From: Trichoplax sp. H2
Lineage: Eukaryota
Assembly (NCBI GenBank): GCA_003344405.1
Contig: NOWV01000176.1
Coordinates: 1-64,000 of the forward strand
Reading direction: 5' to 3'
Length of the DNA: 64,000 nucleotides
The first letter of the stretch is position 1. Each line of letters begins with the position of its first letter. The notes beneath the pieces were generated by a model. That model saw nothing but the letters and a program-made list of their open reading frames with translations, was not told where the DNA came from and did no database searches. The position numbers were made by a program, and so were the translations under genes. Of this stretch, positions 19,670 to 62,575 are shown piece by piece.

Positions 19670-21030
19670 ATCGCTAGTGTAATAAGCTGAAATCATGATA
19701 TTAGACGCAAAGTCGGATTAACCACCAAAGCTATTCCTGCGTTCGACATGCATCTCCTGTTGTGCTGTACTTGATGATGTACAGAGACTAGTCATTGAAG
19801 GAAAGAGGGCCATTGGCCAGCTTCCTCATGACTCCACTTGCCTTATAAAAAAAGCATTACTACTGTCATGAGCTGAAATTATGATATTGGACTCCAATTC
19901 GGATTAACCATCAAAGTAGTTCTTGCGTTGGATGTGTATCCTGTTGTACGTGATGGCGTACATGGACTACTGTAGTCATTGAACAAAAGAGTACCATTGC
20001 CAGTCGGCCATCAGCTCACTCATAACTACATTTCTGTATAGCCTAAAATACATCGCTACTGTCATGAGCTGAAATTATGATATTGGACTCAAACTCGGAT
20101 TAGCTATCAAAGTAGTCAAAGTAGTTCCTGCGTTCAATGTGTATCCTATTGTACTTGACGGCGTCTATGGACTAGTCCTTGAACGAAAGGATACCATTGC
20201 CAGTCTGCCATCAGCTCATTCACGACTAGACTTCTGTATTGCCTTAAAAAAAACTTGGCTACTGTCATGAGCTGAAATCACGATATTTGACTCGAATTAG
20301 CTATCAAAGTAGTTCCTGCGCTCAATGTGTATCCTGCTGTACTTGATGGCGTACAGGGACTAGTCATTGAACGAAGAAGCTCATAAGCCAGCTCACTTCT
20401 GTATTGCCTTACTGTCATAAGCTGAAATCATGACATTGGACTTTAATTCGGATTAACCATTGTAGTGTAGGGGTTGTTAGCCCTAAATATTTGCCGTTTC
20501 ATCATACTGGCCTTATCCACACTTACTTTAAGACGTACAGTTAGTTCTACACTACATGCTATCACTCTATTGCCTACACAGAACTACTTTAATTAGCTGA
20601 AATCACTACAACCATCAAAGTAGTTCCTACGTTCAATGAGTATCCTGCTGTTCTTAATGGCGTATAGGGACTCGTCATTGAACGAAAGAAGGCCATAGGC
20701 CAGCTCACTTCTGCATTGCCTTACTGTCATGAGCTGAAATCATGACATTGGACTTTAATTCGGATTAACCATTGTAGTGTAGGGGTTGTTAGCCCTAAAT
20801 GTTTGCCATTTCATCATACTGGCCTTATCCACACTTACTTTAAGACGTACAGTTAGTTCTACACTACATGCTATCACTCTATTGCCTACACAAAACTACT
20901 TTAATAAGCTGAAATCACGACAACCATCAACGTTCAATGAAAATCCTGCTGTTCTTAATGGCGTATAGGGACTAGTCATTGAAGGAAAGAAGGCCATTAC
21001 CAGTCTGCCATAGCCAGCTAACTTGCCACT
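19670..21030. repeat. Diverged tandem array upstream of SLC35A3 (~8 units of ~140-200 bp, ending in a 312-bp higher-order doublet)
   Basis: Anchor agctgaaat recurs at ~19686, 19871, 20067, 20270, 20420, 20596, 20732 and 20907. Segments 20410-20721 and 20722-~21030 are near-identical composite units. Confidence 0.9.
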
Positions 21031-21828
21031 ACAGTCACTGGCTCACTGCGCCATCTTTCTCATCGCTAGTTGGGGTTGGCATGATTGACAACGTTGAAGG
21101 TGTCACAGGTGCGATCGATCGATCGCTGGATGCTACAGCTGCAGCCGGGATAGGACAATGGAGGAAAAGTAAACTCTGCTGAATGCGTTGTTGTAGTGTG
21201 CGCGTTCTACAAGCGATAGTCTCATGTTTGAAACATACAGTCTTGATATAGCCTAAAACAAGAGTTTTCCATGCCAGAATCAGTCCATTCTTGGCTATCC
21301 AGGGCAGTACAAAAGTTGGACATAAGCGTGTAGCACAGCCAGTCATTGGTCGTGGACAGAGGGACAGACAGACAAAGCCCACTGTCCAGACTGGACAGTG
21401 GGCAGGCGCATACTAATGACGAAACGATCCTTCCTTCCGTTTATTCCTCTTGTAATGGGACAAGAATGAAAGCAACCTTGACCAACTTGGCTCGTCTAGA
21501 AGTGGAGACATAGAATAAGAGATTATTAAGCTATAGAGTGGCTATTAGAATTACGAAAGGAAAGCCTTATTAATCATCCAATTGACGAAGCAATTACATC
21601 CTTGCTACCAAGGGGAAAATCACTGGATCCTACGCGTACTTGGACTGGCGTTGAGAGTCGCTATTTTGCCCTTGACTACAAATTGTAAACTGGCTGCAAC
21701 ATCGTTCAATAGTTTACCCTACTTTCTTCTTAGCCTATTGGCACACACAATCGATACGATTAGCAAAGTTTTCTATTACGCCTCTACAGCAATCTTACGC
21801 TAGTTTCAACCTATCGAATAGGATTATA

Positions 21829-24800: not shown

Positions 24801-25059
24801 TCAATCATCATTGCAGGCTATTGGGGGTTTGATAGTCGCCGTTGTTGTAAAATACGCTGACAACATCCTTAAAGGATTCGCTACATCGATCTCAATCATA
24901 ACATCTTCACTTTTATCTTATTACGTTTTACAAGACTTTATTCCATCTCAATTTTTTGTGTATGGAACTTGCATTGTACTTGTCGCCACTTATTTATATA
25001 GTAAGCCTGACGCCCCAGCTCCTAGTCCGCCGACTTCTTCAGCAAGTAACAAAGTCTGA
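21829..25059 (+). CDS. SLC35A3: UDP-N-acetylglucosamine (nucleotide-sugar) transporter, SLC35A family, 4 exons
   Basis: Exons 21829-22359, 22874-23003, 24504-24661, 24817-25059, with GT-AG and consistent phase. Motifs [64 protein letters not shown]. The tail YYVLQDFIP fits SLC35A3 better than SLC35A2. Confidence 0.92.
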
Positions 25060-26002
25060 ATAGACGTGAAATAGGATACTGGAGAAGCTGAACTATCGTC
25101 GAATTATCCAATTCATTTCAGCATAAATGACTATAATACGCTTTTAGCGTATCGCAAATGAGGCGAAGCAACGATATCGAACGAATTTAACTGGCGTTTT
25201 CTTAGGATAATCACTATATTATAGACTGATGTTCAAATTCATTTTAATCTATATTTAACTTACAACGTGTGCGTAAGGACTTGTCCATCATTATGATTTG
25301 GATATATACAGATATTACGTAGGTATGATATTATTATTATTTTATTACAATTTGATGATGAAACCGAGATTATACTAATTTGTGTACTCGTATTTTAATG
25401 TATTTGGTAGTTACCGTCTTAAGTTATTGTTGTTGTCTCCATTGGACATACACGTCCATTGTGTTTAATTAATGTGAAGACAATCTTAAACTATTGGCGT
25501 GTGATATAGCACAACTAAAGTTGCATAAGGGAAATCCATCGGAGAATTCTTGCTCAATTATTGAAACTGAACTCTTTCACGATATACAGACTCTTTAATC
25601 AAGAAAATTACAAAACGACATATACCTAGTCAGAAAATCATATACAACTAATTATATACAAACAGTAGCATAATGATTTAGATTGTTTACCGAAATAGGT
25701 ATACGGTATAATCAAAGCAAAAGTGAACGTATTGTTTTCAGAATCTTACTAAAATGGCACTAATTCAAGATAAATTAACTAACGATTCCTTCATTTATGT
25801 TATTAGTAAAATATCTCCAATACCGCTTACATAACAATTGAAAATTATCCGTAATCCATACGGAAAACAGAATAAAACTTGACGAAAAAGTACTTGTCAC
25901 TGTAGATGAGTAATTGCAGTGATAGGTAGTTACAATTGAAGATGAAGCAAGTGCATCCTTGATCAACGATAGTTTAAATTATAATTCTTGATTGGTAAAC
26001 TG

Positions 26003-26983
26003 TTAATCTTTGCCAGCAACGAGTATCCCTTGGCCAGACGACTTTGTTTCTTTGCTCTCTTCCTGATTGGATTCTCGTTCTCCTCTGACTTTAATGTTAT
26101 ACTTTTGCCTAAATTGATTTATCTCTTCTCCTTTGGTACCTAATCTCTCTTTTAGTTTTTCCGTTGCTTTAATGATCTGTAAGCATGGAAACAATCAAGT
26201 TAACTTTAAGAACCTAGCCGCAGTATGGCATTAAAAAGCGTAGGCTTTACCTTCTCGCTATACTACAGTATAAAGTAGACTGTATAGTATAAATTAACAT
26301 GCGTATCCGCTTTGGTGTCTCACTGAGAATAATATGAGATGATATCCAACGATTTTCATTTCATATATCACAAGTAAATGCTGGTACACAGCTCTACGGT
26401 ACTGTATAGCACTGTATTTGCAGTCCATGATAATACAGTAGTGTAATTCGATTAAAGTAATTCCAAAATTAAAGAAGACAACGTTAAGTGGGTTGCACGT
26501 TTCTACTACTATTACAATACCTGCTCTTGGTTATGTTGCAACGCTGGAAGGACTTCTCCAGCCGTCCTTTCAACCAAAATGCCTCCAATCAAACGGAAGC
26601 ATTTCCTCTTTGCGTCGACCTCTTGCAAGGTATCAATGACAATTCTGTATAAAAAGAAGTGAATGCATAGATTCATTGACGTAGCCAACATCATGACAAC
26701 AAGTAAGCATGTAACCGAAACAATCTATCTCCTTTAGCAGCTCGCTATGTGAAAGTGGATCCATTGCAATCGATGGATTTCATCTGCTAGAGCTGGACAA
26801 CAAGTCCATAGTATCCTGTTATTACTGCTTTACAAGTCTACAAACTCACTTGTGCTCATTTTTCTCTAATTCTAATTCGCCAATCTTGGAAGCAATCGCT
26901 CTCTGTTCCTGTCTTAAATGGTTAAACTGTGCAACAACTTGATCCTGTGTATATAACGTCTTCGTTTTCTTGCCAGTCGCCAT
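26003..26983 (-). CDS. PFDN2: Prefoldin subunit 2, 3 exons
   Basis: Exons 26983-26850, 26644-26521, 26176-26003. Protein MATGK...FNHLRQEQRAIASKIGELELEKNEHKIVIDTLQEVDAKRKCFRLIGGILVERT...GILV, typical of PFDN2. Confidence 0.95.
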
Positions 26984-27067
26984 GATGCCTTGTCCACTAT
27001 GAGAGCCTTTGAAAAAATCGATACGCTTGACTATACGCAAGAGTACTGTCCTGTGCTGTATACTCAC

Positions 27068-28066
27068 CTACAGTACCGGTCTAGACCAGCTCGGTTTCTC
27101 GGCCTTTAGTGCATGCGCAATGTTGACAGATCTCAGCCGTTTGCCACTTCCACCATACTCATTTCTGAAATTGAGCCGTTTATGACTGTTCAGTAGGGTA
27201 TATGAAATACTGTACTGTACAGTATAGTAGACTAGTGATGCGGGATGCTGATGCCGTACTTTGAGGTCTTGACGGTCTGGTCTGGTCTGGTCTGGTCCGG
27301 ACCCCGGTCTGCAGAAAACGGTACGCTCAAGGATACAGTGTACAGTACTGTACGTAGTGTACTGTACACTGTACAGTACACTGAGTAATAGTAGCTCCAA
27401 AATACCCTCTTTAGACGGACAGACATCTGGCCTCATTTCCTTCACAAATTGTTCTAAACACTGCGTTATGACTGTGCTGTACTTTAGTATGCTAACAGTC
27501 GATTGTGAATGAAGTGATTTTTTGCTAATGAAGTCATATTTCATTGCCTTCCATTACCTATTGCTAATCTCTGCTTNNNNNNNNNNNNNNNNNNNNTACA
27601 GTACCGGTCTAGACCAGCTCGGTTTCTCGGCCTTTAGTGCATGCGCAATGTTGACAGATCTCAGCCGTTTGCCACTTCCACCATACTCATTTCTGAAATT
27701 GAGCCGTTTATGACTGTTCAGTAGGGTATATGAAATACTGTACAGTATAGTAGACTAGTGATGCGGGATGGCAGAAAACGGTACGCTCAAGGATACAGTG
27801 TACAGTACTGTACTGTACGTAGTGTACTGTACACTGTACTGTACTGTACTGTACAGTACTGTACTGTACACTGAGTAATAGTAGCTCCAAAATACCCTCT
27901 TTAGACGGACAGACATCGAGCCTCATTTCCTTCACAAATTGTTCTAAACACTGCGTTATGACTTTACTGTACTTTAGTATGCTAACAGTCGATTGTGAAT
28001 GGAGTGATTTTTTGCTAATGAAGTCATATTTCATTGCCTTCCATTACCTATTGCTAATCTCTGCTT
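27068..28066. repeat. Duplicate of the PFDN2 promoter region on both sides of an N gap (27068-27576 vs 27597-28066)
   Basis: Near-identical copies. They differ in (ACTGT)n length and in a ~60-bp indel containing (CTGGT)n. Confidence 0.9.
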
Positions 28067-28200
28067 GCAAGCAGTAACTTCAGATCGTCAATGTTATTTC
28101 AAATTAATACGAGTGATTTAGAAAACAGATACGGAAAATCGATACTGAGCAACTCTTTTTCCACATTTCACTCTAATCAGATTTGAAAAAGTCCATCCAT
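27900..28200 (+). repeat. Dispersed promoter-associated ~300-bp element, homologous to 41392-41747
   Basis: Colinear shared blocks: gacggacagaca, gttatgac..gtactttagtatg, tcgatt, attacct..tgctaat.tct, agatcgtc, agtgatt.agaaaacaga, aaagtcc.tc. Confidence 0.8.
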
Positions 28201-28406
28201 CCGAGGAGAGCACCTAGTCCAAGTGTACTGGGTACTCTTCTCGGACGGACGGTCGTACACACTCCATTCGTGGCGGGCTTCAACACACACTTACGTCACC
28301 TTCCAATGATTACCATGGCAAACGAGTTCGTTTTGAAAGTGGAAATGAATTGGAAATAATGTCCAACAACATCTCGGCGTAAGATAGAAGCAACAGTAAA
28401 ACATTG

Positions 28407-31400
28407 ATGGCTTTGAGGACTATCAACAGCAATAAGGATTGGTGAGTGAAGAAATGATGAATTCACAGTACTGTATGAGTGTATAGAGCAACGTACTAGC
28501 TACATGTACAATTGTACAGCCATGATATAGGATAGTCAATTGTAGATGTTCAATGCTTGAGCATGATGGAAAGGTAGATTTTAGGCGAATTACCACTCAA
28601 TAGACTGCATGAAGTTGTTCTTATTAAGTAGTCCCTCATTATGACTGTAATAGCGACCGACAGTGATAATATGCTGCTAACGTGTACTCTTATTTTGGAT
28701 ACTTTTGTAGTGTATTTAGCACAGATGATCCATTTGCTGAAGAGGAACAACAATCTCGGCCTTTTTATTATCCTACTCCTGAGAAATACTTTGATCCAGA
28801 ACAACGACGTCAGGTTCATTCTACTCTACATAAATGATGATCATCCGCTCAATTTATTTTCATGCCATCATATGCAGTCAATTGAATATGGACTGATCAA
28901 ATGACCCCGCCATTCGGACATAATTTATTGTATTGCAAAGTGCTATACTAATACTCTATACTACGCTGTGTAGTAAGCTTCAATGGCTACTCACATCATT
29001 GCATCGGTTCTATACCTTCTTAGTACGCTGACAATGTCAATTCGTTATTTTGACTTATTTGAAACCTCCTTTGCCCTCTGTATTTCTGTATTTTTTGTAT
29101 TAACATACTATATCAATTTTACTGTGCATCATTTTGTCGATATTAGCTCATGATCTCAAAGATAGAATATCGTCTCAAATCCGTACCAAATTTACTGTTT
29201 CGATCAAACTCCTTGATTAAAATTCATGCCAATACAATAGTAGTAATAAACGACGTATAGTATTTCCTACGGAATAACATGGCGAAATACTGTATGCGTT
29301 TCACAACCTAGAGGAAGTAATTAAAACCTCCTGTAAAGGTCCACACTAGAATTTGCCAGTTAATTTGACGCTGAAGTTGATGCAATATTCCCAAATTAAT
29401 TAATTAACATTTCCGCCTGAAACATTGCTTAAACTGATACTTTTGGATTGATTGTAGCCTAATAATGTAGTGCCACTAGCCAGTATCCAATTTGTAAGGA
29501 TCATAAATGCAGTTCTGTTTATGCAAAAGGATATGATAACAGTTAAATACAATAACTTCTTTGTTATTACCATTGCATATTAAAATCTATTTCAATATGT
29601 TCTTGTGGTAATACGGTCGATGATTGTAATGACAAACCTACTTCATGACTGATTAGATATCGATAAAACCTCGACGGCTGGATAAGGAAGAGGAAAACTT
29701 GGAGCTCATCTCGAAGGCATTTATCGATCGTTCTCACGATTTGAAACCTATAGCAAATCAACAAGAATCATTATATGATGAAGAAACTTGGCCAACTACC
29801 AGCAGTGATCAGTCTATGGCAATGTCCACCCCAGAATCAACCTCAAATCAGCGACGCAGTAATGTCGCAAAAACTGCTGACAACAGCAATGGCAATAAGG
29901 ATTTTACATCAGCACAGTTAACTAGTCTCAACCGTAGCCTTAATGAACACAAATCGATCCCCTCAAGAGACCAAATCAATAACAATCAAACCAAATCTGA
30001 TAAAACTACAATTTCTTGGTTAGGGAAATGATATAATGTATACTATATTTATATCTTAATTGCCACATGCAAACTGTTACGTCTTTAGTTAGCAGCTGGC
30101 CTTATGAGATTCTTAGAGTAAGAGATAGGGATCCAAATTCAGGAATCAGTGAAATCTTTTATCACTTACTCAGTAACGTGGTTAAATATTGCAGGTATAT
30201 AGATAGATTTCGACAATCAAAACCAACTCCAAGGGATGAACGAAATCTTTCTACTGAAACATCTGACTTCTGGTGGAAAGACAACGACAACAAGACAGAA
30301 ATCACTAAAAGCCTGCAAGGTATCCATTATGAACGTGAGGCAATGAAAGAACACACTTCCAATGCCGATGGAAAGACAGTAATTTGATACATATTTATAT
30401 TTTTGGTTATAATTAAACTCTGTTCAAATGCTTATGATACAGTGTATTCATATTTTCAATAGAGTGATAGCGGTAACACAGCAACTAACCACGATGAAAG
30501 AAAATTAGATCCATTGAATGACATACACCAACGAGCCAATTTACTAATCAGTGAAAGGTATCGCTATCTCATTACGTAATAGTAGCAGTCCTGTAGAGCC
30601 ATTAGATTTATATGCCTTTACGTAAAAAGTTAAAAACGATTTATCTTTATGGTCAACGCAGTGCCAGATCCTGACAATGCTATTGCCTTCTTAGCTCATG
30701 TTATTACATTTTATTTTTAAACTCTCCAGCCAAAGCGTATTATCAGAATCCAGTTTGATGCCTCGTGTAAGCACCGACGGATTCTCGTCTGACCTGTCCG
30801 ATCGAAAAAGCGATCGTTATGTCTTAACAAGCGATAGTAAAACCATCTCCAAGCAAACCTCTAGAAGTCCTCCTCTAAGAGTAATAAAAAATTTCGATAC
30901 TACCACTCAAAATATTAAAAACAATTGTCCAGAAGAAATTAGTCATGCTCATAGTAACGATGACCTATTATATCAGTGGCGGATAGCACGAAAGATGGAA
31001 TTAGCTAGATTATCGAGGGCCAGATCAGGTTGGTGTTCAAATCTCAATTGGATAAGTATTAAATAAGTAAATGGACAAAATGTCATGCATGTATGTAGTT
31101 TAAAGGTACACGTTTCCGTTTTAGGGTACCTGAAAACTAAATCACAATTTATTCCACGTGTGGCTAGCAATCTGCATAGTTCAGAAATTAATTACTCAAA
31201 TACGATTAGCAATACTAAATATCGATTGAAGGATGCTGCTGTACAAACTGTTCATAATATTGACGCTAAGATGGTAGCGAAGACCATTTCCTTCGACGTT
31301 TATACCCAAACTAATGCTCACTTGGAACAGATTACTGGTGATAGACTCGTGGCTACCAATAAAACGGAAAATAGCACAAAGACATTAGTAAATCAATCCC

Positions 31401-31945
31401 TAATTACAAGCAGTGTACACACAGTTGGTGAAAAGGATGAAAGCTTATTGAAGCACAATAATTCTGAAATTACCTCAGATAAAGCCGTAAATGCTGATCT
31501 TTTGGTATCGGATTGCAACAACTATGAAAAGAACGTTAACATGAGTTTAGGAGATGTGAACGATATCGCTAAAGAAAGCGCTAGTGTACAAAAGAATTTA
31601 TCCAAAGGAAGTTCTGACCATAATATTGTGCCGCAAGAGAAAAACGATATGAAAGAGCCTGAAGACTACAATGTTGACTTGGATTCCATATCTAGCGACG
31701 AGGAATATCAAGATGAAATTTTACAAATTCTAGAAGCTAAAGCGAGTCAATGTCGTCAACAGTTGGCGTTAGTATATTTAGTCCAATGACTCTTTTATGC
31801 ATAGCTGAGCATATGCATTTGCGACATTGCGTACAGTCGTGCTGCGAATATTACTAAAGCGAATTGTATTTGCTTTACTTTTCTTTATAGATGGGTCGAT
31901 ACTTTATTGGAAGAACTTAGAGAGGAAAGGCAATTTCAAGACTAA
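28407..31945 (+). CDS. PROSER3: Proline and serine-rich protein 3-like, ~8 exons
   Basis: Inferred exons 28407-28441, 28720-28813, 29657-30018, 30195-30378, 30463-30557, 30730-31029, 31125-31768, 31891-31945. Conserved islands WYIDRFRQSKPTPRDER..SDFWW, HQRANLLISES, DDLLYQWRIARKMELA match PROSER3 motifs as I recall them. The start exon is uncertain. Confidence 0.75.
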
Positions 31946-37900: not shown

Positions 37901-37914
37901 TTTAATTAGGCAAC

Positions 37915-39076
37915 ATGCATATGCTTCACAAAATTGCCCTTCTCGCTCTCATTTGCTCTATTATGGTCTTACAAGCACATTCTTCGTCCATGTATTACGT
38001 GATGGTATGTCAATATTTAACTTTTTTAGATAGGACGGGTTCAATATCTTGCATTTGTATTTACAACGTGATTAGAAGGAGATGCTGTTTTTTTGATCAT
38101 TTATATTGTTAATTGGCTTCAATTTCCTCTGCAGAGAATCTGTTATTGGTAGTTACTATTTGATATACGAGAGTAGCAATGGTATAAATTCCTGTAAATT
38201 AGAATGATCATTGTATAGGTGCTAATAAATTAATAGGTGAACCTTCAATTCTAGCTAGGATTAGAAAAGTGGTCATAGTATTCCTGTTTTATATTGTTTA
38301 TTGGCTTTAGTTTCCTATACAAGAGCATCTATTGCTGATAGTTGCTATCAATGATATTCGGCAGCAGTAATGGTACAAATCCCCGTAAATTAGAATTACT
38401 ATTGTATAGGCATGTTGAATGAATAGTTTACCTACATTTTAGCTAAGATTGGACGAGTGGCCATAGTAATCCTATCTTATATTGTTCATTGATTTTATTT
38501 TCCTATAGAAGAGCATCTATTAGTAGTAGTTGCTATCAATACTATTCGACAGTTGTAATAGTACAAATCCATGTAAATTAGAATCATTATACTATAGGGC
38601 AACTTAAATTAATAGTTTCAATTCTAACTAGGATTGGATAAGTGGACATAGTACTGAACTCCTATTCAATGTTGTTCATCGACTACGTTTTACTTAACAA
38701 GAATATCAATTACTATTGATATTCTACAGTAATAATGCTTCAAATCCTTGCCAATAAGAATCATCATTGCTTAGTTTAATTAAATTCAGTAGTTTAAATT
38801 CGAATTAGGATTGGATAAGTGGCTATAGCTCTCCTATTTTTTATTTATTGATTATTGATTATTTCATTTTCGATCACGTTTGGCTACTATGTCATTTATT
38901 AAAGTCTGTAATACTCAAATCAATAATTTTAAAACGTCATTATTATTATATTATTCTAGAGGAGGGATAATTGCGCTATTGTCGGTGGACTTAATTGCAA
39001 AGATGATGTTGATTGCCAATTACAATGTGGGTTATCCTTCTGTGACGTTGATCGATGTAGCAATCCACCACTTTAA
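37915..39076 (+). CDS. Small secreted cysteine-rich peptide precursor (68 aa; 6-Cys mature peptide)
   Basis: Exon 37915-38004 encodes MHMLHKIALLALICSIMVLQAHSSSMYYVM and is followed by the donor gtatgt. Exon 38960-39076, after ttctag, encodes RRDNCAIVGGLNCKDDVDCQLQCGLSFCDVDRCSNPPL*. Both are phase 0. A probable 5'UTR exon ends ~37605, with an acceptor at ~37909. Confidence 0.8.
38020..38860. repeat. Intronic diverged tandem array, ~4.5 x ~185 bp
   Basis: Anchor gtaaattagaat at 38194, 38385, 38573 (variant ~38750). Anchor gatt(a/g)ga..agtgg..atag at ~38258, 38447, 38631, 38808. Confidence 0.85.
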
Positions 39077-39819: not shown

Positions 39820-40966
39820 TTAAAAATCCAATTCAGATTTACAAAAGATTTGTCACTAAAGTTCGGTATCGCGAAATGGATTTAGAAATGCAAATTCTCC
39901 AATTTTGATACCAGCAGGCAGTATCGACACTTTGTACTTCCACTTACTATAATAGAATCAGAGTTATGCACTATGGTGGCTGATCTCAGCCCAACTGTAT
40001 GATACTGGTGATCAATCTGATCACACATGCTTACCAAAAATAAAAATAAATACAGTAAATTAATTCACACCAGCAGTGAAGATATTACTTGTACTGCAAT
40101 ATAGAAAGAAGAAGATTTGACGAGTATGTGGTATATATTCACTAGATGAACGTCCTGTCTCTTTGCTGACAGAGGTATCCTAGTTCATAGTGGGCTAAAT
40201 AATGCAAAATTACAGTACCACGCATGTTTTGAATGTCATGATTATAATAATAATAATGGTAAATCCTGGACTACTAATATATAATTAATTCAATAATAAA
40301 AGACATTCTGCAAAATTACCAAATTGACTTAGTATCGATCTTGAGTGTCGATTTTTTGGAATCATTTCTACTCATTTAAAAACATTGATGACGTTCTAGA
40401 ACTGCTTTTCAAGCAGAACTGAGTATAATTATGGACTTCTAGATAGCTAGAGAATATATTACTGTCACAAACTTATGTTGCGAACTACTACACTAAACTA
40501 ATAGATTACTTATGCCTTGCTCCACTACACCTGGAGATCTACTGTATGGTAGTTCTTTACTACTTTCGGTCACACAGGGAAAAGACTATTCTAAAAGATT
40601 AGTATAGTTTTTATTAGTAGAGTAGCCGAGTACCTTCTCGTACACGATCTAATAAGGAACTCTGGAACTGAGCATTCGCTCGTCCTTTTATACCATTCCA
40701 CTAAATTTATGGTATCGCCATTATTAAATCTACTGTATATAGGCTCTACTAATTAATTGCAAATACAATTATGCATTTTTGTCGTCTAGCAATCTAGACA
40801 TTAATATTCTTAATTTCAATTACGCTTACCAATATGATCCATTAGCTAAATACTGACAAAATCTATTTAATTAGCAAGTACGGTGCTTTGCTCCGTAGCA
40901 ATTACATTTAATTTAGCAAAATAAGTGAATAAGAGAACCGGCCATCCGCTTCAAGACCTATTCTGG

Positions 40967-41262
40967 CGAATAGACGTGTTTGCTGGGGCCGAATTGTCCG
41001 GCTTGTCCGAGTCAAGACTGAGTAGGAAGTCCATGATTCCAGCTGTCTGTAGTCATGGACTGCTCGAATAGACATGTTTGCTGGGGCCGAATTGTCCGAC
41101 CCGTCCGAGTCAAGGCTCAGCTGCAAGTCCATGATTCCAGTTGTCTGTAGTCATGGATCGCTCGAATAGACGTGTTTGCTGGGGCCGAATTGTCCGACCT
41201 GTCCGAGTCAAGAGTCAGGAGGAAGTCCATGATCCTGGCTGTCTGTAGTCATGGACCGCTCA
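40967..41262. repeat. GC-rich minisatellite, 3 x 98 bp, upstream of NDUFS2
   Basis: cgaatagac(g/a)tgtttgctggggccgaattgtccg starts at 40967, 41065 and 41163. Each unit carries the inverted repeat tccatga...tcatgga. Confidence 0.95.
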
Positions 41263-41391
41263 CAAGAAAACAGTCATTACAGTACTGTACTGTACACTAC
41301 ACTGAACTCATACAGTACAGTAGCCATATGCTCAATCAACCACGGCAGTAGAAGAAGACCGGGAACCAAGAGTCCTGGACTGATCCCTCTT

Positions 41392-41747
41392 GGACGGACA
41401 GACACTTTGGTCTCATCTGGTCAAGATATTGTGCCTGGTTATGACGGTACTTTAGTATGGAGATGATCGATTATAAATATTTGGTCTCATCTGGTCAAGA
41501 TATTGTGCCTGGTTATGATGGTACTTTAGTATGGAGATGATCGATTATAAATATATCGATTTTTTCTCAGTTAAGTAATATTAATTGAATCTTATTACCT
41601 GCTGCTAATTTCTGTTTGTAAGCCGTTCTATGAGATCGTCGATATCATTGAAATGAGTACCAGTGATTGAGAAAACAGACTGGGAAAGCTCCATACTAAG
41701 TGACCCTTTTTGGACGGTGTCATTGGATAAGAAAAGTCCGTCTGTCT
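41392..41747 (+). repeat. Second copy of the promoter-associated element, with an internal 2 x 74-bp tandem duplication (41406-41553)
   Basis: Begins ggacggacagac and ends gtccgtctgtc (imperfect inverted ends). Internal blocks are colinear with 27900-28200. Confidence 0.8.
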
Positions 41748-41923
41748 GGCAGTATCTATCCTATCAGCCGGCGGCGTCCGGTGGACTACACTGAGTCGTC
41801 GTAGTACTGGTGTCAGCTACCGTACCGAACCATACCGTACTGTACTGTACCCACCCCTGGCGTAGACTGCCAGTCAACAATCTGGTCCAGTTGTTGTAGA
41901 GCTTTATTTCAACCATCACCAAG

Positions 41924-44900
41924 ATGGCGTCGAGGTTGTTGAGTAGAATATCGCGAAGCAGTCAATCGTTAAGCTTTAGAAGACAAACACCAGTTGTATC
42001 TGCTTTTAGGTAAGTTAATAGAGCGTTGAAAACAAGTGACTTAACAGTGTATTAGGTTGTACACGGTAGAATGCAAGTATGAAGCGGCTTGTAGTGCTAT
42101 ACCGTATTGGCAAGTTACAGAAAACGTGAATTAAGCGATCCATGTTTGTCTTGTCAAGGTGTGGACGACTTAGTTCCAATCCATCTTGACTAAATCGCCC
42201 TATCATGCTATCTTATACTCATGACGATATCAATTAAACATCAACGATGATCTGATAATGCTACTAGATTGTGTTGATCATGCGATCGAAGCCGTATTAT
42301 TCATACGAGTAGATCAACTTTTCAACTCTATCCGGTAATATGGACGATGTTTGTTGGCTGGGTGGAGTACAGTCGAGATCGTTTTTGACTAGTCTATCGA
42401 TCCAACTTTGCTCTTTCACTTCATCAAAGTTCTTTAAACTGATTGATGTACTGTAGTGGTTCAAGCTGCCTTTTACATACAAGTGATGGTCAAAGATAAG
42501 CAGTCTTGAGTAACTTGTTGTAATAAGAGTTAGCTTATGATTGTAGTATTTCCAAAGTTTTTCGACTTTTTTTTCTTGCAGTACCATGGGCCTTCCCCAT
42601 GACATGAACAATGTTGCCTACAGTAGTGTGTTAATCACTTTGTATCAATATTAATCATACTACGTCTATAAATGAATTCCAGATACAATAGCGATTCAAT
42701 CAAGGAAAGCAAGCAATCACTGAAACCTAAGCCCTGGGAACCTCAGGGTGTTCAGCAACCACTTTCTGACTTACAAATGAGAGTCTTGCCGGGATATCTC
42801 AACGATGATGCAGGAAATGTTTTATATCCGAACGAAATAAGCGAAATATGGGATAAGGATGGAGTTTGTACGTCATTTTCCAAGTATCATGAACCAATCT
42901 TTGTCATTAATATATATATGGTGTATTAGCAACATCTTTTGGCATGATGTTATTCTAATAACCTTCAATAAACTAAATTTATATTTTAAGAGAAAACATC
43001 TCTACGTACACCTTTCGGATGACTAACGCAATGACCGTGTTCTATATATTGTATCTCATCGAATTATTTCATGTTATAGTATTTACGCCGGACCAAGACA
43101 TCGGTAGCTATACGGTCAATTTCGGCCCACAACATCCAGCTGCTCACGGCGTATTACGTCTTGTCATGGAATTAAACGGAGAGGTATGTTTGGAATAGGT
43201 TCTCTGATTCATGATTCGGTAACGTTAACAACATAGATTGTATATCTCCTTCTGTAATATTTTTCATCAAAGTTGATTTATATGCGGGTTTAATCAAATG
43301 TCTAACTTTCTATATTATCTATCCATATTGATAGACTGTAAAACGTTGCGATCCACATATTGGTTTGTTACATCGTGGAACAGAGAAATTATGCGAATAC
43401 AAAACATACCTTCAGGTAATGTACAGTAGCTGTAGCATAATATCTACTTGTATATTAGACTATTCCTAGTCCGATATGATAAGAGGCCGCTTTATTGCTA
43501 AATACAATCTAGTAATAAAATAACAACATAGTCGGCTACATGTGCAACATAATATTACCAGTCTGTCCTGTATTCATACCTTAATAGAGTATGGTACAGT
43601 TTGATAATAACTTGACTGCTGATACAGATTAAAACATTTGACATATTGAAATAATTAACTACAGAGTATTCCGTAGACTTGAAAACAAAGCTAATCTTTC
43701 ACTGGACTTTTACTAGGCTTTACCTTATTTTGATCGTTTGGACTATGTATCCATGATGTGTAATGAACAATGCTACTCCTTAGCCGTAGAGAAGTTACTA
43801 AATATTCAAATTCCAGAAAGAGCAAAGTTTATTAGAGGTACTAGAAATTTGTGAAATAGCGATATCTAAATTTCTCTCAGCCAGCAATAAAATATTAATT
43901 AATTCAATTTTTGCAGTCTTATTTGCCGAAATTAGTCGACTATTAAATCACATTATGGCTGTTACCACTCATGCGTTGGATGTTGGTGCTATGACGCCTT
44001 TCTTCTGGATGTTTGAAGAGCGTGAAAAGGTAAATTTGAACATAACAACTACTGGCAGATTTATAGCTTAAGGTTAAAGCATGGCTGCACTTGAATAATA
44101 CCACATGCCTTATAATGTCACTTCAGATGATGGAATTCTATGAGCGCGTCTCTGGAGCTAGATTGCACGCTGCTTATGTAAGACCTGGTGGAGTTGCACA
44201 GGTAGTTAAACTAGAACTAGAATTATAGTGTACAGTTGCTAATTCCGTTGAGAAAAACTTAACTTAAGTAACAACGGAATGTACAAACCGTCCTCTTCCA
44301 TTGTGTCGTTGTTTAGGACTTACCGTTAGGGCTGATGGATGACATTTATAGTTTCTGTAAGAATTTTTCGCAACGAATTGATGAATTGGAAGAGGTAACA
44401 TACAGTATTTGGAATAATTGATTGAAATCACATCTGCCTTCTCTCAGCTGGAATTATCTTGTATTGCTTTATTTTGGGCATAGATGTTAACAAACAATCG
44501 CATCTGGAGGGATAGAACCGTCGATATTGGGATAGTCACAGCTCAAGAGGCTCTTGATAATAGTTTCAGGTGACTGTTTAGTGACTTTTGCACCGATCAA
44601 TTTTAAAGTTGATAATAGTTCCTTTATACCTGATAGCGAGGGTTTAAGAAATTTAATAAAAATGTTGTTGCGCAAATTTTATATGATATTCCTTCACCAA
44701 ATTATCAGCGGTGTTATGCTACGAGGTTCTGGAATTAAATGGGATCTTCGAAAGGTGCAGCCATACGATGCTTACGATAAAGTTGAATTCGATATTCCAA
44801 TCGGTACTAATGGCGATTGCTATGATAGGTAAAACGATTAACTGGAACAGTGTATTAAGAATTGGCCGATTATTTTATCTCGTTCTCCTAATTTGCTTTG

Positions 44901-51947: not shown

Positions 51948-52684
51948 ACGTATATTACTACAGTATTTTAAGTATTATTATTAACACTGCAGGAACTAGA
52001 TATGAATAGGTCTACACTATTATTTAATACAGTATTATGGCTATACTGTCTTGAGATCGCTGTTAGCAATGTCGACGTTAAATTAATGCCCTTTAGTGGA
52101 TTAATCAATCTTTCCTTTGAGATTTAGATATTCAATCGTAATTATTCAATAACCTTTTACTAATTCACCGTCAAATTTGAAATTTTCTTCTAGCACACGA
52201 TAGCATCGACCATTAATGTTGACAATCTCCGGCATCATGATATCATTAGCGTTAGCCATGATGGGTTCTTGTGACACTACAGTACGTTCGTTGATCAATG
52301 TTAGTCCAATCCAGCAATACAACTTTATAAGCTAGGCAGGCTGTTCATCCTGACCTGAAAAGATGCACATGACAAAAAGGGTCATCACTTTCAAATTGCT
52401 AGCATACCAGAAACAGCCACAAGTTCAGGTCCTACTTACGTTATCTACCCAATACCCTGCCTAGATTAATTATTACTCTATCTGATGTTGATTGTAGTAT
52501 CCAAGTAATACAGTACGAAGAGCAGAGTGACTATCGATTGGCTTTTCTTGATCAGCGAGCAAATCAGCATGTACTGACCTATTAATGGAGAGATATTTTC
52601 AACGCATTGATAGGCTGTCGTTATGCTTATATCGTATTATAATACTGTATTATCATGACTGTTTCCTCTACACTACCGTGGGTT

Positions 52685-53452
52685 AGTCTACCGTGAGCTA
52701 AATGATTTCATTGATTTAGGCCGCTGCTCAATTTTACCTATTACACCCAGCAAATGATCACAACAAACAAGGCGCTGAGTCTTGTACTTGGATCTTGCTT
52801 CTAGTTGACCTGGTTTATGTATCAATGGAGAATGCAAGCTATTGATTATCGACCGAAAATAAGAAATGGTTTCTTACACAGAAACGATGCAATCTTGGTG
52901 ATTACCTTGACGATTGTGTACAAACAGCTACAATTGCTTCAAGAATGAATTAATTATAAAATGATTGGTATCTTGGACGCCTAAACCTTAGCAAGAGTTG
53001 GAATGTTTTGGATGATTGTAGTAGCCAGCAAAGCTGCAAGTGTACAATTGAGACGATCCAGTCTACAGTCTACCGTGAGCTAAATGATTTCATTGATTTA
53101 GGCTACTGCTCAATTTTACCTATTACACCCAGCAAATGATCACAACAAACAAGGCGCTGATTCTTGTACTTGGATCTTGCTTCTAGTTGACCTGGTTTAT
53201 GTATCAATGGAGAATGCAAGCTATTGATTATCGACCGAAAATAAGAAATGGTTTCTTACACAGAAACGATGCAATCTTGGTGATTACCTTGACGATTGTG
53301 CACAAACAGCTACAATTGCTTCAAGAATGAATTAATTATAAAATGATTGGTATCTTGGACGCCTAAACCTTAGCAAGATTTCGAATGTTTTGGATGATTG
53401 TAGCAGCCAGCAAAGCTGCAAAAGTGTACGATCGAGACTATCGAGTCTACAG
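52685..53452. repeat. Tandem duplication, 2 x 382 bp, upstream of the ASCC1 coding start
   Basis: agtctaccgtgagctaaatg starts at 52685 and 53067. The copies are nearly identical. Confidence 0.95.
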
Positions 53453-54200
53453 TGTACAGTGTACAGTATGAACGTTGTATTGTGTACTGTACACTCTTGC
53501 TTAGGACGGTCAAGAATTTACCCTACTGGACGCTGTTGAGCGACTTAGCTGCTCGTGTCGAGGTAAGAAAAAAGCCTGTTTTTGGACCTCGATGGCTGCT
53601 CGTCAGGAGAGCTATCTTCAACAGTGGTCGGTGCACTAGTGTAAACTATCGTATCCACTGGTATACACTGTTTGATGGGGATCCAAGAAAGAGAGACTAT
53701 CAAACTACCGCACCAAACCATGGGCAGAACTTGGACTGTCTTTGCCTGGTCAGTTTTACTTGACGGGTCGGCAAGGACAGACAGCCAACAGTGTAGTGGT
53801 CGGTTATAGAGGTAGAATACAGTTAAAATGGCTAGCAATCTGTCGGCCTTCCTGGTTCCACTACCATCATCCACCCTTCAGCGACTTGGATGACGGTGCA
53901 GTACCGTACCAGGGTCTTCTGAGCAGGCCCAACGTGCACGTGACCCACTCCAAGCCTTACCGTCGACATCAAGAGCAGTCAGGGTATTGTATCATACCAT
54001 CGGTCAAAAGCCCTATCACTCGTATTCACTTGCTTCTGACAGCGGTGCTAGTAGAGTCAGGGGCGGTGGTCAAGGTCCAGTGGACCAGGGTAATCCATTT
54101 TTAACCCGTACGCACACTTTTTACTGACTACAGTATAAAATCGCTTTTAACCCCTGGGCTGATTAACTTGACCGTTGCTGTGGAAGGGTCGGAAAACCAG
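53440..54200. promoter_or_regulatory. GC-enriched island, probable bidirectional promoter of ASCC1 (-) and RNF13/167 (+)
   Basis: Local GC rise between divergent genes, ACAGT-type tracts, palindrome ggtccagtggacc (54074-54086), and splice donors facing outward (+ at ~54201 gtaggt; - at ~53960 gtaagg). Confidence 0.6.
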
Positions 54201-59054: not shown

Positions 59055-61344
59055 TACCGCGACAGCACATCATTCTTATAGTGATCATGATTAATCTCAA
59101 AAATTTAGGGCTATTACTTATTGTGCACAACTAGAGGATGAATTTGTTAGCTGTAAATGTTTCTTCCATTAGAAAAATATTGGAGAGAGAATCATCAAAA
59201 AGAAACTTTAACTTTGTAAATGTAATGGTATAAAAAAAGATTTTGTATCTCTTATTCTTTAATATACTGTAATCTAGAATTACTTCTATGCTTAATTTAG
59301 CCCTTTGCGAGAGCTCAATAATTTTACATTATCGATGGAAACGGAGATTTTGATTACAACTTTACCAGTTAGTAGTTAATCTTATCTTACGAGCTCAGCA
59401 TATCAGACTACTTTGACTTTTCTAACACGATCAACTTTCCTCTCTATTCATGTATATTATGCATAGTGTAATCAACTAGGGGATAGGCTCCAAAATGACA
59501 ATATCGAATGTAATATCGGATACATTAGAATAGCGCTAGATGCATTGATATTATTAGCTAATTTCATAATGTACGTACTCGTATGCTGTAATATATGGTA
59601 GAGCATAATATCTGTAATTGATAAAATGATTTTTAAGCAATTATAAGGAGTACATGTATGAATCTGATTATATTCTTAAGAATATATCGACCAAAAGTTA
59701 ACATTGTCCTATTCTAATACTGTATGTCACCCAACGTTATACTGTACTGTAGTTGAAAACGACGTAACATAATATATGATATGTAGAAAAATATTCTCTG
59801 TAAACCTGATCAAATTAAAGTCGTAAAATAGATGTTTGTAATTTTAATAATAAAAGTCAAAGATTTATCATAACGTCGTTCATTATACTGTTTTTCTCAT
59901 TTAGCACTTGAAAATCATATCGTTCTGTGATAGAGTTACTTGACTGTTGCCAATTGAATCTTTGCTTGTGTTTAAAATTTCTTCCTTGCTCCTATAGACT
60001 GCACACTCTTTAGTCTAAAGTTGCTACCAGTGTCTTATGACGCAACGATAAGTTTATAGACGAAAGAAATTTCAAATTACTCTTAAAGTGCTTGAATATG
60101 CCTATACCTATGCATAAAGAATAGCCAATATGATTGATTTCTCCTCCACACACCACCATTGAATGAATCAATACCTGTCAGCTACATTATCATAACCTCA
60201 TCCTAGAGTAGCAGAACCCTTCTGTATTTCAAAATTACTAATTCTTACATTTGGTATGGATTACATGTGATTTTTTGCCAAGTCAATGATAATAGGAAAC
60301 TATTCAGCTTGAAGGAAATTCTTCCTAGATAACTAATCTATGCTGATGATTGAAAAAGCAAGTAGGAAACGAAACTCTTGTCCTATCACCCATATCTGAG
60401 TATGTTAACAGTCCAAGATTAGACGCTATGGTCATACGTGCATGTTACTACCACATCACAATGCATGTTACTAAATCTCTTGTAAGCGGATAATGGTTCC
60501 TTTTCAGTATTGATTCTATCTAATGATGATCGATTCCTTATTGGGAATGATACAAGCATTCAAGCAGTAATTCACAGAACTAAGAACAGTCAGTAGTTTG
60601 TTGCGAATTATAAACTGAAAGCTATCCACTAAGAATTGGAATTACTTTTTCTTCTGTCGGTGTATCCAAATAGTTCTTCATATTCTGTAAAATAAGATTG
60701 TGGAACCGTTGCCGTTCCCATCTTATGGTTGCTTTTGGATCAGACCTTTGTTAAATCTGATCAAATTCAATTATTCCTAGAACAAAGTGTCTGCATATAC
60801 AAGAATAATGCTTCTTCATTTCAATCACTATCCCAATACGTCATGTTGTTTTACAATCTTGGATAGAGACTAGGGAGTCGTAGTCGTCAGTCCTATCAAC
60901 ACCGATGGTGTATTCTGTATATCGACCTATCCCATCGTGATTGAATCCATATTTATTCTTATTGTTAATTAGCATGGACTTCTCGATAGTAAATAGAATT
61001 TTGGACCAGACACTGATTGATTACGATGGAGAAAAATCGGTGCATAATTTTACAACAAAATGCATCCAATTTTCTATGAGTGGATAGAGGGAGATGTAAT
61101 GAACATATCGATTTATATCTATATTACATCCAATTGATTCCTATTGAAGCCTTCCTTTCATATTTTATAATGGACTGTAGCACGAGAATAATCCCATGGT
61201 AGAGTCCAGCATAGGGAACGTATAACGTTGAATTTTGAAACATTACTTGACGTAAAGTACTCGACTGTGCACTGTATTAGGCAGCCTCATCGAATACAGT
61301 ATGGTACAGGAAATCTTTTTCTGTTTTGTTAATCTCAAGGCAAT

Positions 61345-62575
61345 TCTTACAGTATTTTGCCCACTTCTGTATTAGAATGGCGTTTCCTTTACCTCTACTA
61401 TCTAATCTCACTCTATTTTGGATTACCAAGTTTTAGCTCCGTCATTGCATATTACGAGGGACTATTACTGTACAGTGTACAATGTAAGTGAGTAAAAATG
61501 AGAGAAAAGCGGGACTGATTGGAAGTGTCTGTTGACTCTCTTCAGAGCAACAAATGACTGAACTGCGTCCATCTTACCGTATGTAGCCCACTTGTCTATT
61601 AGAATGACGTTTCCTTTACATCTTGTTCTGCCTAATCTCTCTCCATTTTTGTTGGCCGAGTTTTAGCTCATCATTGAATATTATTCTTGAATATTATTAT
61701 GAGGGAACTCTGCGAGTAATACTGTAGTGTAGTGTAGAATCTACATGAGTAAAACAGAAAGAGAATAGTGCGACTGATTGGAAGTGTTTCTTGACTCTCT
61801 TCAGTACATCAAATGGCTGTACTGCGTCCATCTTACAGTATATTGCCCACTTGTCTATTAAATGACGTTTCCTTTACCGCTTCTTCTGCCTAATCTCTCT
61901 CCATTTTTGTTGACCAAGTTTTAGCTCGTCATTGAATGTTATGAGGGAACTCTGCGAGTAATACTGTAGTGTAGTGTAGAACCTACATGAGTAAAACAGA
62001 AAGAGGATAGTTCGACTGATTGGAAGTGTTTCTTGACTCTCTTCAATACATCAATTGGCTGTACTGCGTCCATCTTACAGTATATTGCCCATTTGTCTAT
62101 TAAAATGACGTTTCCTTTACCTCTTGTTCTGCCTAATCTCTCTCCATTTTTGTTGACCGAGTTTTAGCTCATCATTGAATATTATTCTTGAATATTATTA
62201 TGAGGGAACTCTGCGAGTAATACTGTAGTGTAGTGTAGAATCTACATGAGTAAAACAGAAAGAGAATAGTGCGACTGATTGGAAGTGTTTCTTGACTCTC
62301 TTCAGTACATCAAATGGCTGTACTGCGTCCATCTTACAGTATATTGCCCATTTGTCTATTAAAATGACGTTTCCTTTACCTCTTGTTCTGCCTAATCTCC
62401 CTCCATTTTTGTTGACCAAGTTTTAGCTCGGTCATTGAATGTTATGATGAGGGAGCGGTCAGAGTAGTAGTGTCCAATCAACAGTACAGTGGTAGGGCAT
62501 CAGACAGAGAAACGCGAGACTGATTGCAAGTGATTGCAAGTGTCTCCTCTCAGTGTCAACAAATGACCGTCGGCC
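61345..62575. repeat. Tandem array of 5 units (227-259 bp) upstream of profilin
   Basis: Anchor tcttac(a/c)gtat at 61345, 61572, 61831, 62073 and 62332, giving periods of 227, 259, 242 and 259. Confidence 0.95.

What the first reader, a model, noticed from the sequence alone, without database searches (positions are those of the whole stretch)
19670..62575. One non-coding element family, single or tandemly amplified, sits at several housekeeping promoters
Seen: three colinear blocks recur. PFDN2/PROSER3 (+, ~28040-28150): ttacctattgctaatctct..ttcagatcgtca..aaaacaga..actga. NDUFS2 (+, ~41590-41700): ttacctgctgctaatttct..tgagatcgtcga..aaaacaga..actaa. Every profilin-array unit (+): ttacctcttg..ctaatctct..tttagctc(g/a)tca..aaaacagaaagagaatagtgcgactgattgg. 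SLC35A3-array units (- strand, e.g. 20104-20008): gctaatcc..ttcagctcatga..atacagaaatgtagttatgagtgagctgatgg. The spacing from ctaat to the second block is 20-25 nt in all four. I saw no copy near the GPCRs. Inference: a promoter-targeting or domesticated element, or a chromatin/regulatory module, that is prone to local tandem amplification. The SLC35A3 match is the weakest of the four.
Basis: partly seen in the sequence, partly recalled or inferred. Interest (0 to 1): 0.78.

Follow-up and report, generated by a model that had tools for sequence, protein, structure and literature searches.

The report
Promoter-resident repeat in Trichoplax, partly real

Summary
The window is Trichoplax adhaerens. 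One part of the finding is solid. The PFDN2-side element (A, 27895-28208) and the NDUFS2 element (B, 41385-41749) are homologous: 71.5% over 193 nt, E 3e-27, 195 of 300 aligned bases identical. A third, inverted half-copy C lies at 40318-40428.

A and B sit in the same orientation as the downstream gene, 205 and 177 nt before its ATG. Both are bounded by inverted (RGAC)n/(GTCY)n tracts.

This fits published work. Kim et al. 2025 report 'Mutator' TIR elements carrying a loop-anchor motif in placozoan housekeeping promoters. A later preprint describes that motif as repeating ACGG.

The unification with the tandem arrays is not supported:
- blastn and nhmmer profiles give no cross-family hit.
- The profilin array shows only a weak colinear likeness. 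One block has p of about 0.01, and the chain scores are tied with unrelated genomic decoys.
- The SLC35A3 array is at chance level.

Both arrays are ordinary minisatellites, which are common in this genome. I found no known RNA family. Genome-wide TSS enrichment could not be tested here.

The parts
27895..28208 (+). Copy A of the interspersed repeat. It lies between PFDN2 (minus strand) and the plus-strand gene homologous to TrispH2_009928. Left tract AGACGGACAGAC at 27903-27914, best-conserved core 27969-28160, right tract GTCCATCCATCC at 28191-28202. The right tract is 205 nt before the ATG at 28407.
27405..27576 (+). A2: the left part of A again (97% identity over 167 nt), cut off by the 20-N gap at 27577-27596. 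It belongs to a 509-nt duplication (27069-27576 versus 27597-28066, 85.7%). This is either an uncollapsed assembly overlap or a real tandem duplication; I could not tell which.
41385..41749 (+). Copy B, upstream of NDUFS2. Left tract GGACGGACAGAC at 41392-41403, internal 74-bp tandem duplication at 41406-41554, core 41521-41711. The core has a 17-bp inner inverted repeat (41520-41536 / 41689-41705). Right tract GTCCGTCTGTCT at 41736-41747, 177 nt before the ATG at 41924.
40318..40428 (-). Copy C: an inverted half-copy, from the central palindrome to the right inner terminus. It mixes A-like and B-like character states, so it is a third lineage. It has no flanking (RGAC)n tract and no gene start identified beside it.
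61345..62575 (+). P array: 5 head-to-tail units of 227-259 bp. Units 2 and 4 are 98.8% alike; the edge units are about 71-72% alike. Each unit carries CTGATTGG (a CCAAT box on the other strand), degenerate in unit 5. The array ends 691 nt before the profilin ATG (63266). A relation to A/B is not demonstrated.
19668..21033 (.). S array: about 8 units of 135-312 bp, upstream of SLC35A3. It is a minisatellite of its own family, with no supported relation to A/B or P.
27795..27873 (.). (ACTGT)n/(ACAGT)n microsatellite just left of A. Similar runs occur at 27334-27390, 41278-41325, 41833-41850, 53455-53495 and 62575-62595. This is the known Trichoplax promoter microsatellite.
   Evidence: Wang 2010
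21354..21373 (+). A further (RGAC)n tract in the SLC35A3 5' region, with no A/B core beside it. Others lie at 28243-28254 and 53775-53786.

Best explanation
A, B and the half-copy C are old, diverged copies of one short non-autonomous inverted-repeat DNA element, roughly 190-bp core inside a roughly 300-bp unit. This kind of element resides in the proximal promoters of broadly expressed Trichoplax genes.

Most likely they belong to the class that Kim et al. 2025 annotated with EDTA as 'Mutator'. The terminal repeats of that class carry the motif enriched at Micro-C loop anchors of housekeeping promoters. On this reading the functional part is the pair of inverted (RGAC)n/ACGG-type tracts at the ends. 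An unidentified architectural factor would bind them and bring such promoters together in hubs. The core between the tracts would be transposon remnant.

Shown here:
- homology of A, B and C;
- the same orientation as the downstream gene and a similar distance to its ATG;
- inverted tracts at both ends;
- no copies at the GPCR genes.

Inferred, not shown: identity with the published family, mobility, factor binding and looping.

The profilin and SLC35A3 arrays are separate minisatellites, made by local unequal exchange or slippage in intergenic DNA. The (ACAGT)n runs beside them are the known promoter microsatellite of this genome.
For: Organism and genes
- Trichoplax adhaerens: a GPCR ORF is 100% identical to TRIADDRAFT_18468.
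- Genes were placed by Pfam and tblastn: PFDN2 on the minus strand, NDUFS2, profilin, SLC35A3, and a TrispH2_009928 homologue.

Homology
- A-B: 71.5% over 193 nt, E 3e-27; z=39.9; 195 of 300 aligned bases identical over the full unit.
- C-B: 68.7% over 99 nt, E 1e-6.
- C shares some states with A only and others with B only, as expected of three descendants of one source.

Inverted repeats
- B's core folds through a 17-bp terminal inverted repeat: -21.3 kcal/mol, z -2.70, with 3 of 200 shuffles folding as well.
- (RGAC)3 with at most 1 mismatch gives 9 matches against 0.45 expected. They flank A and B in inverted orientation or lie in 5' regions of three other genes.

Position
- The right tract lies 205 nt (A) and 177 nt (B) before the ATG of a same-strand gene.

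Literature
- Kim et al. 2025: housekeeping (GP1) promoters often hold 'Mutator' insertions whose TIR contains the loop-anchor motif; repeat annotation was by EDTA (passages read).
[quoted passage not shown] (passages read).
- Wang et al. 2010, PMC2871265: ACAGT is the major microsatellite, with 54% of copies within 1 kb upstream of genes; 9,208 minisatellites were counted (passages read).
Against: - No target-site duplication was found at either the inner or the outer boundary of A, B or C. This rests on my own reading.
- The outer tracts are inverted only as tetranucleotide runs; they are not colinear terminal repeats.
- A's core does not fold better than shuffles: z -0.37, with 67 of 200 shuffles folding as well.
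- There are only three copies, all in one 64-kb window, and two of them lie 1.2 kb apart. Local duplication is therefore not excluded for B and C.
- No transposase was seen in the window.
- The published motif logo and TIR consensus exist only as figures or picture PDFs that I could not read. The link to Kim's family therefore rests on a second paper's one-sentence description of the motif.
- The 'Mutator' label comes from EDTA's structural annotation. I found no transposase-based support for it in the passages I read.
- Wang 2010 reported MITEs as rare in this genome: one family of about 20 copies.
Confidence: 0.6

Rival explanations
1. One reading: one element family, present once at the PFDN2-side and NDUFS2 promoters and tandemly amplified at profilin and SLC35A3. 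This would be a transposon-derived or regulatory module prone to local amplification.
For: - A block defined from A and B only (TTACCTNNTG, 0-10 nt, CTAATYTCT) recurs in P unit 4, where 0.01 matches are expected per window. A looser form is in 3 of 5 P units.
- With cheap gap extension, A against P units gives z 3.8-6.6 (0 of 300 shuffles) and B against P units gives z 0.9-3.2. All A/B-P reverse-complement controls stay between -1.3 and +1.0.
- With full-length A and B, z is 0.9-4.1.
- P units are the top-ranked of 1,874 genomic segments for the right halves of both A and B.
Against: - There is no cross hit by blastn at E<=1, or by nhmmer profiles at E<=10 or E<=50.
- With ordinary gap costs, no cross pair exceeds z 1.8.
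- In the decoy test, unrelated segments score within 0.1-0.3 of the P units. With full-length A or B, no P unit is among the top 15.
- The second block with its spacing is at chance: 6 observed against 4.47 expected.
- For the S array, reverse-complement controls score as high as the proposed orientation, up to z 3.5.
- The gap range in the block-1 pattern was chosen after seeing P.
Confidence: 0.15
2. A and B are not transposon copies. They are a conserved promoter module, meaning an ordered set of transcription-factor sites that has been selected in, or copied between, housekeeping promoters.
For: - Both copies have the same orientation and a similar distance to the ATG, 205 and 177 nt.
- Similarity runs past the inner inverted repeat into the flanks on both sides.
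- No target-site duplication was found.
- Conserved short blocks are shared with P units.
Against: - Homology is continuous over about 300 bp at 65%, rather than confined to site-sized islands.
- Copy C lies inverted with no gene start identified beside it.
- B has a 17-bp terminal inverted repeat.
- The two genes are unrelated in function and lie 13.5 kb apart.
Confidence: 0.15
3. A and B are small RNA genes, for example RNA polymerase III transcripts ending at the T5 run that follows the core in both copies (CTTTTTCC / CCTTTTTGG).
For: - A run of five T follows the conserved core in both A and B.
- The core is about 190 nt long.
Against: - No Rfam family matches at gathering thresholds or at E<=5. 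The only 3 weak hits lie in the microsatellite or at 63762-63842.
- No tRNA-like gene was found.
- The central palindrome in A and C is broken in B without compensation.
- A does not fold better than shuffles.
- C lacks the T run.
Confidence: 0.04

Closest known systems
Placozoan promoter 'Mutator' TIR elements at loop-anchoring housekeeping (GP1) promoters (Kim et al. 2025, Nature, PMC12221973; passages read)
   Same: - Same species.
- Located in the proximal promoters of housekeeping-type genes (PFDN2 side, NDUFS2) and absent from cell-type-specific GPCR genes.
- Inverted terminal tracts of the ACGG/ACAG repeat type, which a citing preprint gives as the published motif.
- No coding capacity.
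   Different: - Direct identity is untested, because the motif logo, TIR consensus and annotation were not readable here.
- No 9-11 bp target-site duplication was found.
- The outer tracts are microsatellite-like rather than colinear repeats.
- Looping, ATAC and H3K4me3 status of these two promoters is unknown to me.
[quoted passage not shown]
   Same: - Short, non-coding and AT-rich, with multiple diverged copies.
- B's core has a 17-bp terminal inverted repeat.
- B carries an internal 74-bp tandem duplication.
   Different: - No target-site duplications.
- Copy number is known only as three.
- A's termini are degenerate.
- Homology extends beyond the inner inverted repeat.
Trichoplax (ACAGT)n promoter microsatellite and minisatellites (Wang et al. 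2010, PMC2871265; passages read)
   Same: - (ACAGT)n/(ACTGT)n runs lie beside A, B, the P array and the 382-bp array (62 matches against 4.07 expected).
- The P and S arrays fit the reported class of low-copy minisatellites.
   Different: The A/B/C family is interspersed, not tandem, and is not described in that paper.
Preference of maize Mu and other Mutator-like elements for the 5' ends of genes (recalled, not from a call)
   Same: Promoter-proximal location of an element that has been labelled Mutator.
   Different: There is no evidence here of a Mutator transposase, of 9-bp duplications, or of recent insertion.

Membership tests
Placozoan promoter 'Mutator' TIR elements (Kim et al. 2025) | Lies in the promoter of a housekeeping-type (GP1) gene | tested here: met
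   A lies 205 nt and B 177 nt before the ATG of a same-strand gene. PFDN2 and NDUFS2 are housekeeping by identity. GP1 status itself (ATAC, H3K4me3, loops) was not checked.
Placozoan promoter 'Mutator' TIR elements (Kim et al. 2025) | Terminal inverted repeats that contain the loop-anchor motif (given as repeating ACGG by the Chimaera preprint) | tested here: inconclusive
   Inverted (RGAC)3/(GTCY)3 tracts bound A and B: 9 matches against 0.45 expected. The published logo and TIR consensus could not be read, and the tracts are not colinear repeats.
Placozoan promoter 'Mutator' TIR elements (Kim et al. 2025) | Annotated by EDTA as Mutator in the T. adhaerens assembly | not testable with these tools
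   No genome and no annotation file were available. EDTA use is confirmed in the Methods.
Placozoan promoter 'Mutator' TIR elements (Kim et al. 2025) | Family shared across four placozoan species, with the motif in orthologous GP1 promoters | not testable with these tools
   No placozoan genome is in any searchable collection. Genome contigs holds prokaryotes only.
Mutator superfamily / MITE in general | Target-site duplication (9-11 bp for Mutator) flanking the termini | tested here: not met
   I found no direct repeat at either the inner or the outer boundary of A, B or C, by inspecting. The elements are old (65-72% identity), so decay is possible.
Mutator superfamily / MITE in general | Terminal inverted repeats | tested here: inconclusive
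   B has 16 of 17 bases paired, with fold z -2.70. A is degenerate, z -0.37. C has the right end only.
Mutator superfamily / MITE in general | Many dispersed copies | tested here: inconclusive
   There are three independent copies in 64 kb, plus A2 at an assembly gap. The genome-wide number is unknown.
   - S: at chance.
- P: above shuffles only with cheap gaps, tied with real decoys, and no profile hit.
Minisatellite (P and S arrays) | Head-to-tail units with array-edge decay and no interspersed copies | tested here: met
   TRF, self-blast and profiles support this. P units 2 and 4 are 98.8% alike, and the edge units about 71-72%.
Known RNA families / tRNA-derived elements | Match to an Rfam covariance model or a tRNA-like fold | tested here: not met
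   0 matches at gathering scores, 3 irrelevant matches at E<=5, and 0 ARAGORN genes.

The most novel reading that the evidence does not exclude
The profilin array would be a tandemly amplified, strongly diverged derivative of the right half of the same promoter-resident element family. If so, transposon-derived promoter modules in placozoans would be multiplied in place. These modules carry the TTACCT..CTAATCTCT block and a CCAAT box. The result would be copy-number-variable promoters or loop anchors. The shared orientation and the roughly 180-200 nt offset of A and B from the ATG would then reflect orientation-specific, promoter-targeted integration.
Probability: 0.15. Interest if true: 0.55.

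Novelty: already known. Interest (0 to 1): 0.3.

Why it matters
If A and B are what they seem, they are two concrete sequence-level examples of the transposon-derived elements recently linked to promoter hubs in placozoans.

They show features that the published summary leaves open:
- a roughly 190-bp core inside a roughly 300-bp unit;
- tetranucleotide tracts at both ends;
- a fixed orientation and distance to the start codon.

These features bear on the open choice between targeted integration and domestication. The work also warns that grouping promoter sequences by eye through short shared blocks over-extends. In this compact, repeat-poor genome, minisatellites and the ACAGT microsatellite crowd the same intergenic space and invite false family links.

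Tried and rejected
- RNA gene: Rfam at gathering scores and at E<=5, plus ARAGORN, found nothing in the elements.
- Foldback or hairpin MITE for A: the fold is no better than shuffles. Left-versus-right-half inverted similarity is significant in only one of five pairings.
- A/B as a dimer of two P-like subunits: this was suggested by one alignment. The internal direct repeat holds in A only (z 3.0) and not in B (z -1.4), so I dropped it.
- Large element with 100-bp terminal repeats formed by C and B (40325-41707): the arms are real, but I found no target-site duplication. C shares states with A that B lacks, so C is an independent copy rather than B's partner.
- S array membership: rejected.
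- More copies near the other (RGAC)n tracts (21354, 53775) or elsewhere in the window: none at E<=50.
- Scan of prokaryotic genomes with an 18-mer shared by A and B: 117 or more loci. All match the profile over about 25-80 nt around the seed, at 11.3 bits or less, so they are chance hits.
- Supplement of Kim et al.: the two files that might show the TIR tree or motif are picture-only PDFs, and the spreadsheets hold no TE or motif data.
- Gene names: 'PROSER3' could not be verified. The gene matches an unnamed 591-aa Trichoplax sp. H2 protein and has no Pfam hit in the local library.
- The Atlas search for the gene at 53676-54101 gave nothing usable.
- One protein search was poorly aimed and gave no taxonomic information ('longer' lengths for the SLC35A3 exon).


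Full report
**Source and gene map**

A 337-aa GPCR ORF (713-1726, minus strand) is 100% identical to TRIADDRAFT_18468 of Trichoplax adhaerens, on a 13.26-Mb contig. Pfam scans of ORFs, plus one tblastn, place the following genes:

| Gene | Strand | Position |
|---|---|---|
| GPCRs | - and + | 713-1726 and 14708-15940 |
| SLC35A3-like | + | from about 21.7 kb |
| PFDN2 | - | coding exons in 26849-27067 and 26515-26724 |
| Homologue of TrispH2_009928 (591 aa, unnamed) | + | ATG at 28407 |
| NDUFS2 | + | ATG at 41924 |
| ASCC1-like | - | about 48.9-52.3 kb |
| RING-finger gene | + | near 58.7 kb |
| Profilin | + | ATG at 63266 |

The name 'PROSER3' could not be verified.

**What is solid**

The element beside PFDN2 (A) and the one before NDUFS2 (B) are homologous.
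- blastn gives 71.5% identity over 193 nt, E 3e-27.
- Smith-Waterman against 300 dinucleotide shuffles gives z=39.9.
- The alignment extends to about 310 bp, A 27895-28208 and B 41385-41749, with 195 of 300 aligned bases identical.
- B carries an internal 74-bp tandem duplication at 41406-41554.

A third copy, C, lies inverted at 40318-40428. It matches B at 68.7% over 99 nt, E 1e-6. It covers only the half from a central palindrome to the right end. It shares some states with A only and others with B only, so it is a third descendant and not a copy of B.

A profile of A, B and C finds nothing else in the window at E<=50. The one exception is A2 (27418-27576), which repeats A's left part at 97% and is cut by a 20-N gap. 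The 509-nt duplication around that gap differs mainly by microsatellite-length indels. It may be an uncollapsed assembly overlap or a real tandem duplication.

**Anatomy of A and B**

- The best-conserved core is 27969-28160 in A and 41521-41711 in B.
- In B the core ends in a 17-bp inverted repeat, 41520-41536 and 41689-41705. Folded as DNA it gives -21.3 kcal/mol, z -2.70, with 3 of 200 shuffles folding as well. In A this repeat has decayed: z -0.37.
- Outside the core, both copies are bounded by tetranucleotide tracts in opposite orientation. On the left these are AGACGGACAGAC (A) and GGACGGACAGAC (B). On the right they are GTCCATCCATCC (A) and GTCCGTCTGTCT (B).
- (RGAC)3 with at most one mismatch gives 9 matches in the window against 0.45 expected. 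All lie at A, A2 or B, or in the 5' regions of SLC35A3, the 28407 gene and the gene at about 53.7 kb.
- I found no target-site duplication at either boundary.
- Both copies point the same way as the downstream gene. Their right tract lies 205 nt (A) and 177 nt (B) before its ATG.
- Runs of (ACTGT)n/(ACAGT)n lie next to A, B, the P array and the 382-bp array. ACTGTACTGT with at most one mismatch gives 62 matches against 4.07 expected.

**The cross-family claim**

- With ordinary gap costs they do not. All A/B-P, A/B-S and P-S pairs have z between -0.9 and 1.8.
- blastn gives no cross hit at E<=1.
- nhmmer profiles of A/B, of the five P units and of six S units hit only their own family at E<=10.
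- To be fair to a model of short colinear blocks, I repeated the test with cheap gap extension:

| Pair | Result |
|---|---|
| A versus three P units | z 5.3, 6.6 and 3.8 (0 of 300 shuffles each) |
| B versus the same units | z 2.7, 3.2 and 0.9 |
| Reverse-complement controls for these pairs | z -1.3 to +1.0 |
| Full-length A and B versus P units | z 0.9 to 4.1 |

- Shuffles are a weak null, so I also scored the right halves of A and B against 1,874 real segments of the window. A P unit ranks first for both, at 27.6 and 23.6. Unrelated segments reach 27.3 and 23.5. With full-length A or B, no P unit is in the top 15.
- One block stands out. TTACCTNNTG, then 0-10 nt, then CTAATYTCT was defined from A and B alone. 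It recurs in P unit 4, against 0.01 matches expected per window. I chose the gap range after seeing P.
- The second block with its 19-25 nt spacing, also defined from A and B alone, is at chance: 6 observed including A and B, against 4.47 +/- 2.09.
- For the S array, the proposed orientation does no better than reverse-complement controls, which reach z 3.5.

Conclusion: the P array's relation to A/B is unproven, and the S array's is rejected.

**What the arrays are**

- The P array (61345-62575) has five units of 227-259 bp. Units 2 and 4 are 98.8% alike and the edge units about 71-72%. This is the pattern expected of unequal exchange.
- Each P unit has CTGATTGG, a CCAAT box on the other strand. 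My reading of it as an NF-Y-type site is from general knowledge, not from a call.
- The P array ends 691 nt before the profilin ATG.
- The S array (19668-21033) has about eight units of 135-312 bp.
- Further arrays lie at 17945-18272, 38100-38950, 40967-41261 and 52685-53503.
- Wang et al. 2010 counted 9,208 minisatellites, 2.4% of this genome. They also identified ACAGT as the major microsatellite, with 54% of copies within 1 kb upstream of genes (PMC2871265, passages read).
- Arrays in intergenic DNA of this compact genome are therefore expected, and they will usually lie near a promoter.

**Comparison with published work**

Kim et al. 2025 (PMC12221973, passages read) report the following.
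- About one third of T. adhaerens genes form Micro-C promoter hubs. This GP1 class is housekeeping and highly expressed.
- A motif is enriched at the loop anchors.
- GP1 promoters often contain insertions of 'Mutator' DNA transposons, annotated with EDTA, whose terminal inverted repeat contains that motif.
- The authors leave open whether this is domestication or targeted integration.

The logo and the TIR consensus are figures, and the two possibly relevant supplement files are picture-only. [quoted passage not shown] It says the former belongs to a transposable element already tied to insulation by Kim et al.

The tracts that bound A and B are of this ACGG/ACAG type. A and B therefore most likely are members of that published class, at about 0.6 confidence. 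Searches for other descriptions found nothing further.

**Limits**

- No placozoan genome, annotation or chromatin track was available.
- Genome contigs holds prokaryotes only, and its scan returned chance 18-mer hits.
- Genome-wide copy number, TSS enrichment, conservation in other placozoans and loop-anchor status were therefore not tested.
- Supplements of bioRxiv preprints could not be seen.

Noticed in passing
window 27577-27596 and 5471-5490: Each of the two 20-N gaps is flanked by a near-duplicate of the neighbouring sequence: 27069-27576 versus 27597-28066 (85.7%), and 5197-5470 versus 5970-6257 (93%). The differences at the first gap are mostly microsatellite-length indels, including a (GGTCT)4 run present only in the first copy. 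These look like uncollapsed overlaps or haplotypes.
   Followed up: partly
window 27795-27873, 27334-27390, 41278-41325, 41833-41850, 53455-53495, 62575-62595: (ACTGT)n/(ACAGT)n runs, often switching strand within a run so that they form palindromes, lie within a few hundred bases of most non-GPCR gene starts. This is the known Trichoplax promoter microsatellite (Wang 2010). A structure-based TE finder could mistake these runs for terminal inverted repeats.
   Followed up: partly
window 40967-41261: Three tandem 98-bp units lie just upstream of the microsatellite that precedes B. Each unit holds an inverted repeat: GTCCATGA, about 16 nt, TCATGGAC.
   Followed up: no
window 52685-53503: Two 382-bp tandem units (92-96% alike) fill the space between the minus-strand ASCC1-like gene and a plus-strand gene of unknown family. 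Each unit contains TTTACCTATTAC, close to A's ATTACCTATTGC, but there is no wider similarity to A/B.
   Followed up: partly
window 21380-21404: A perfect 12-bp-stem palindrome (CCCACTGTCCAG A CTGGACAGTGGG) lies directly after the (RGAC)n tract in the SLC35A3 5' region.
   Followed up: no
window 28044-28049, 41595-41600 and each P unit: On the opposite strand, the shared TTACCT reads AGGTAA, which resembles a 5' splice-site consensus (my own knowledge). I did not test whether divergent transcripts use it.
   Followed up: no
window 38100-38950 and 17945-18272: Two further minisatellites (188-bp units, about 4.5 copies at 66-77%; 163-bp units, 2 copies at 97%) lie in AT-rich intergenic DNA with no identified gene start beside them.
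   Followed up: no
window 31067-31786: The translated ORF is 100% identical over 90% of its length to a protein of Trichoplax sp. H2 (TrispH2_009928), although the window's GPCR matches T. adhaerens H1. The two lineages are evidently very close at this locus.
   Followed up: no
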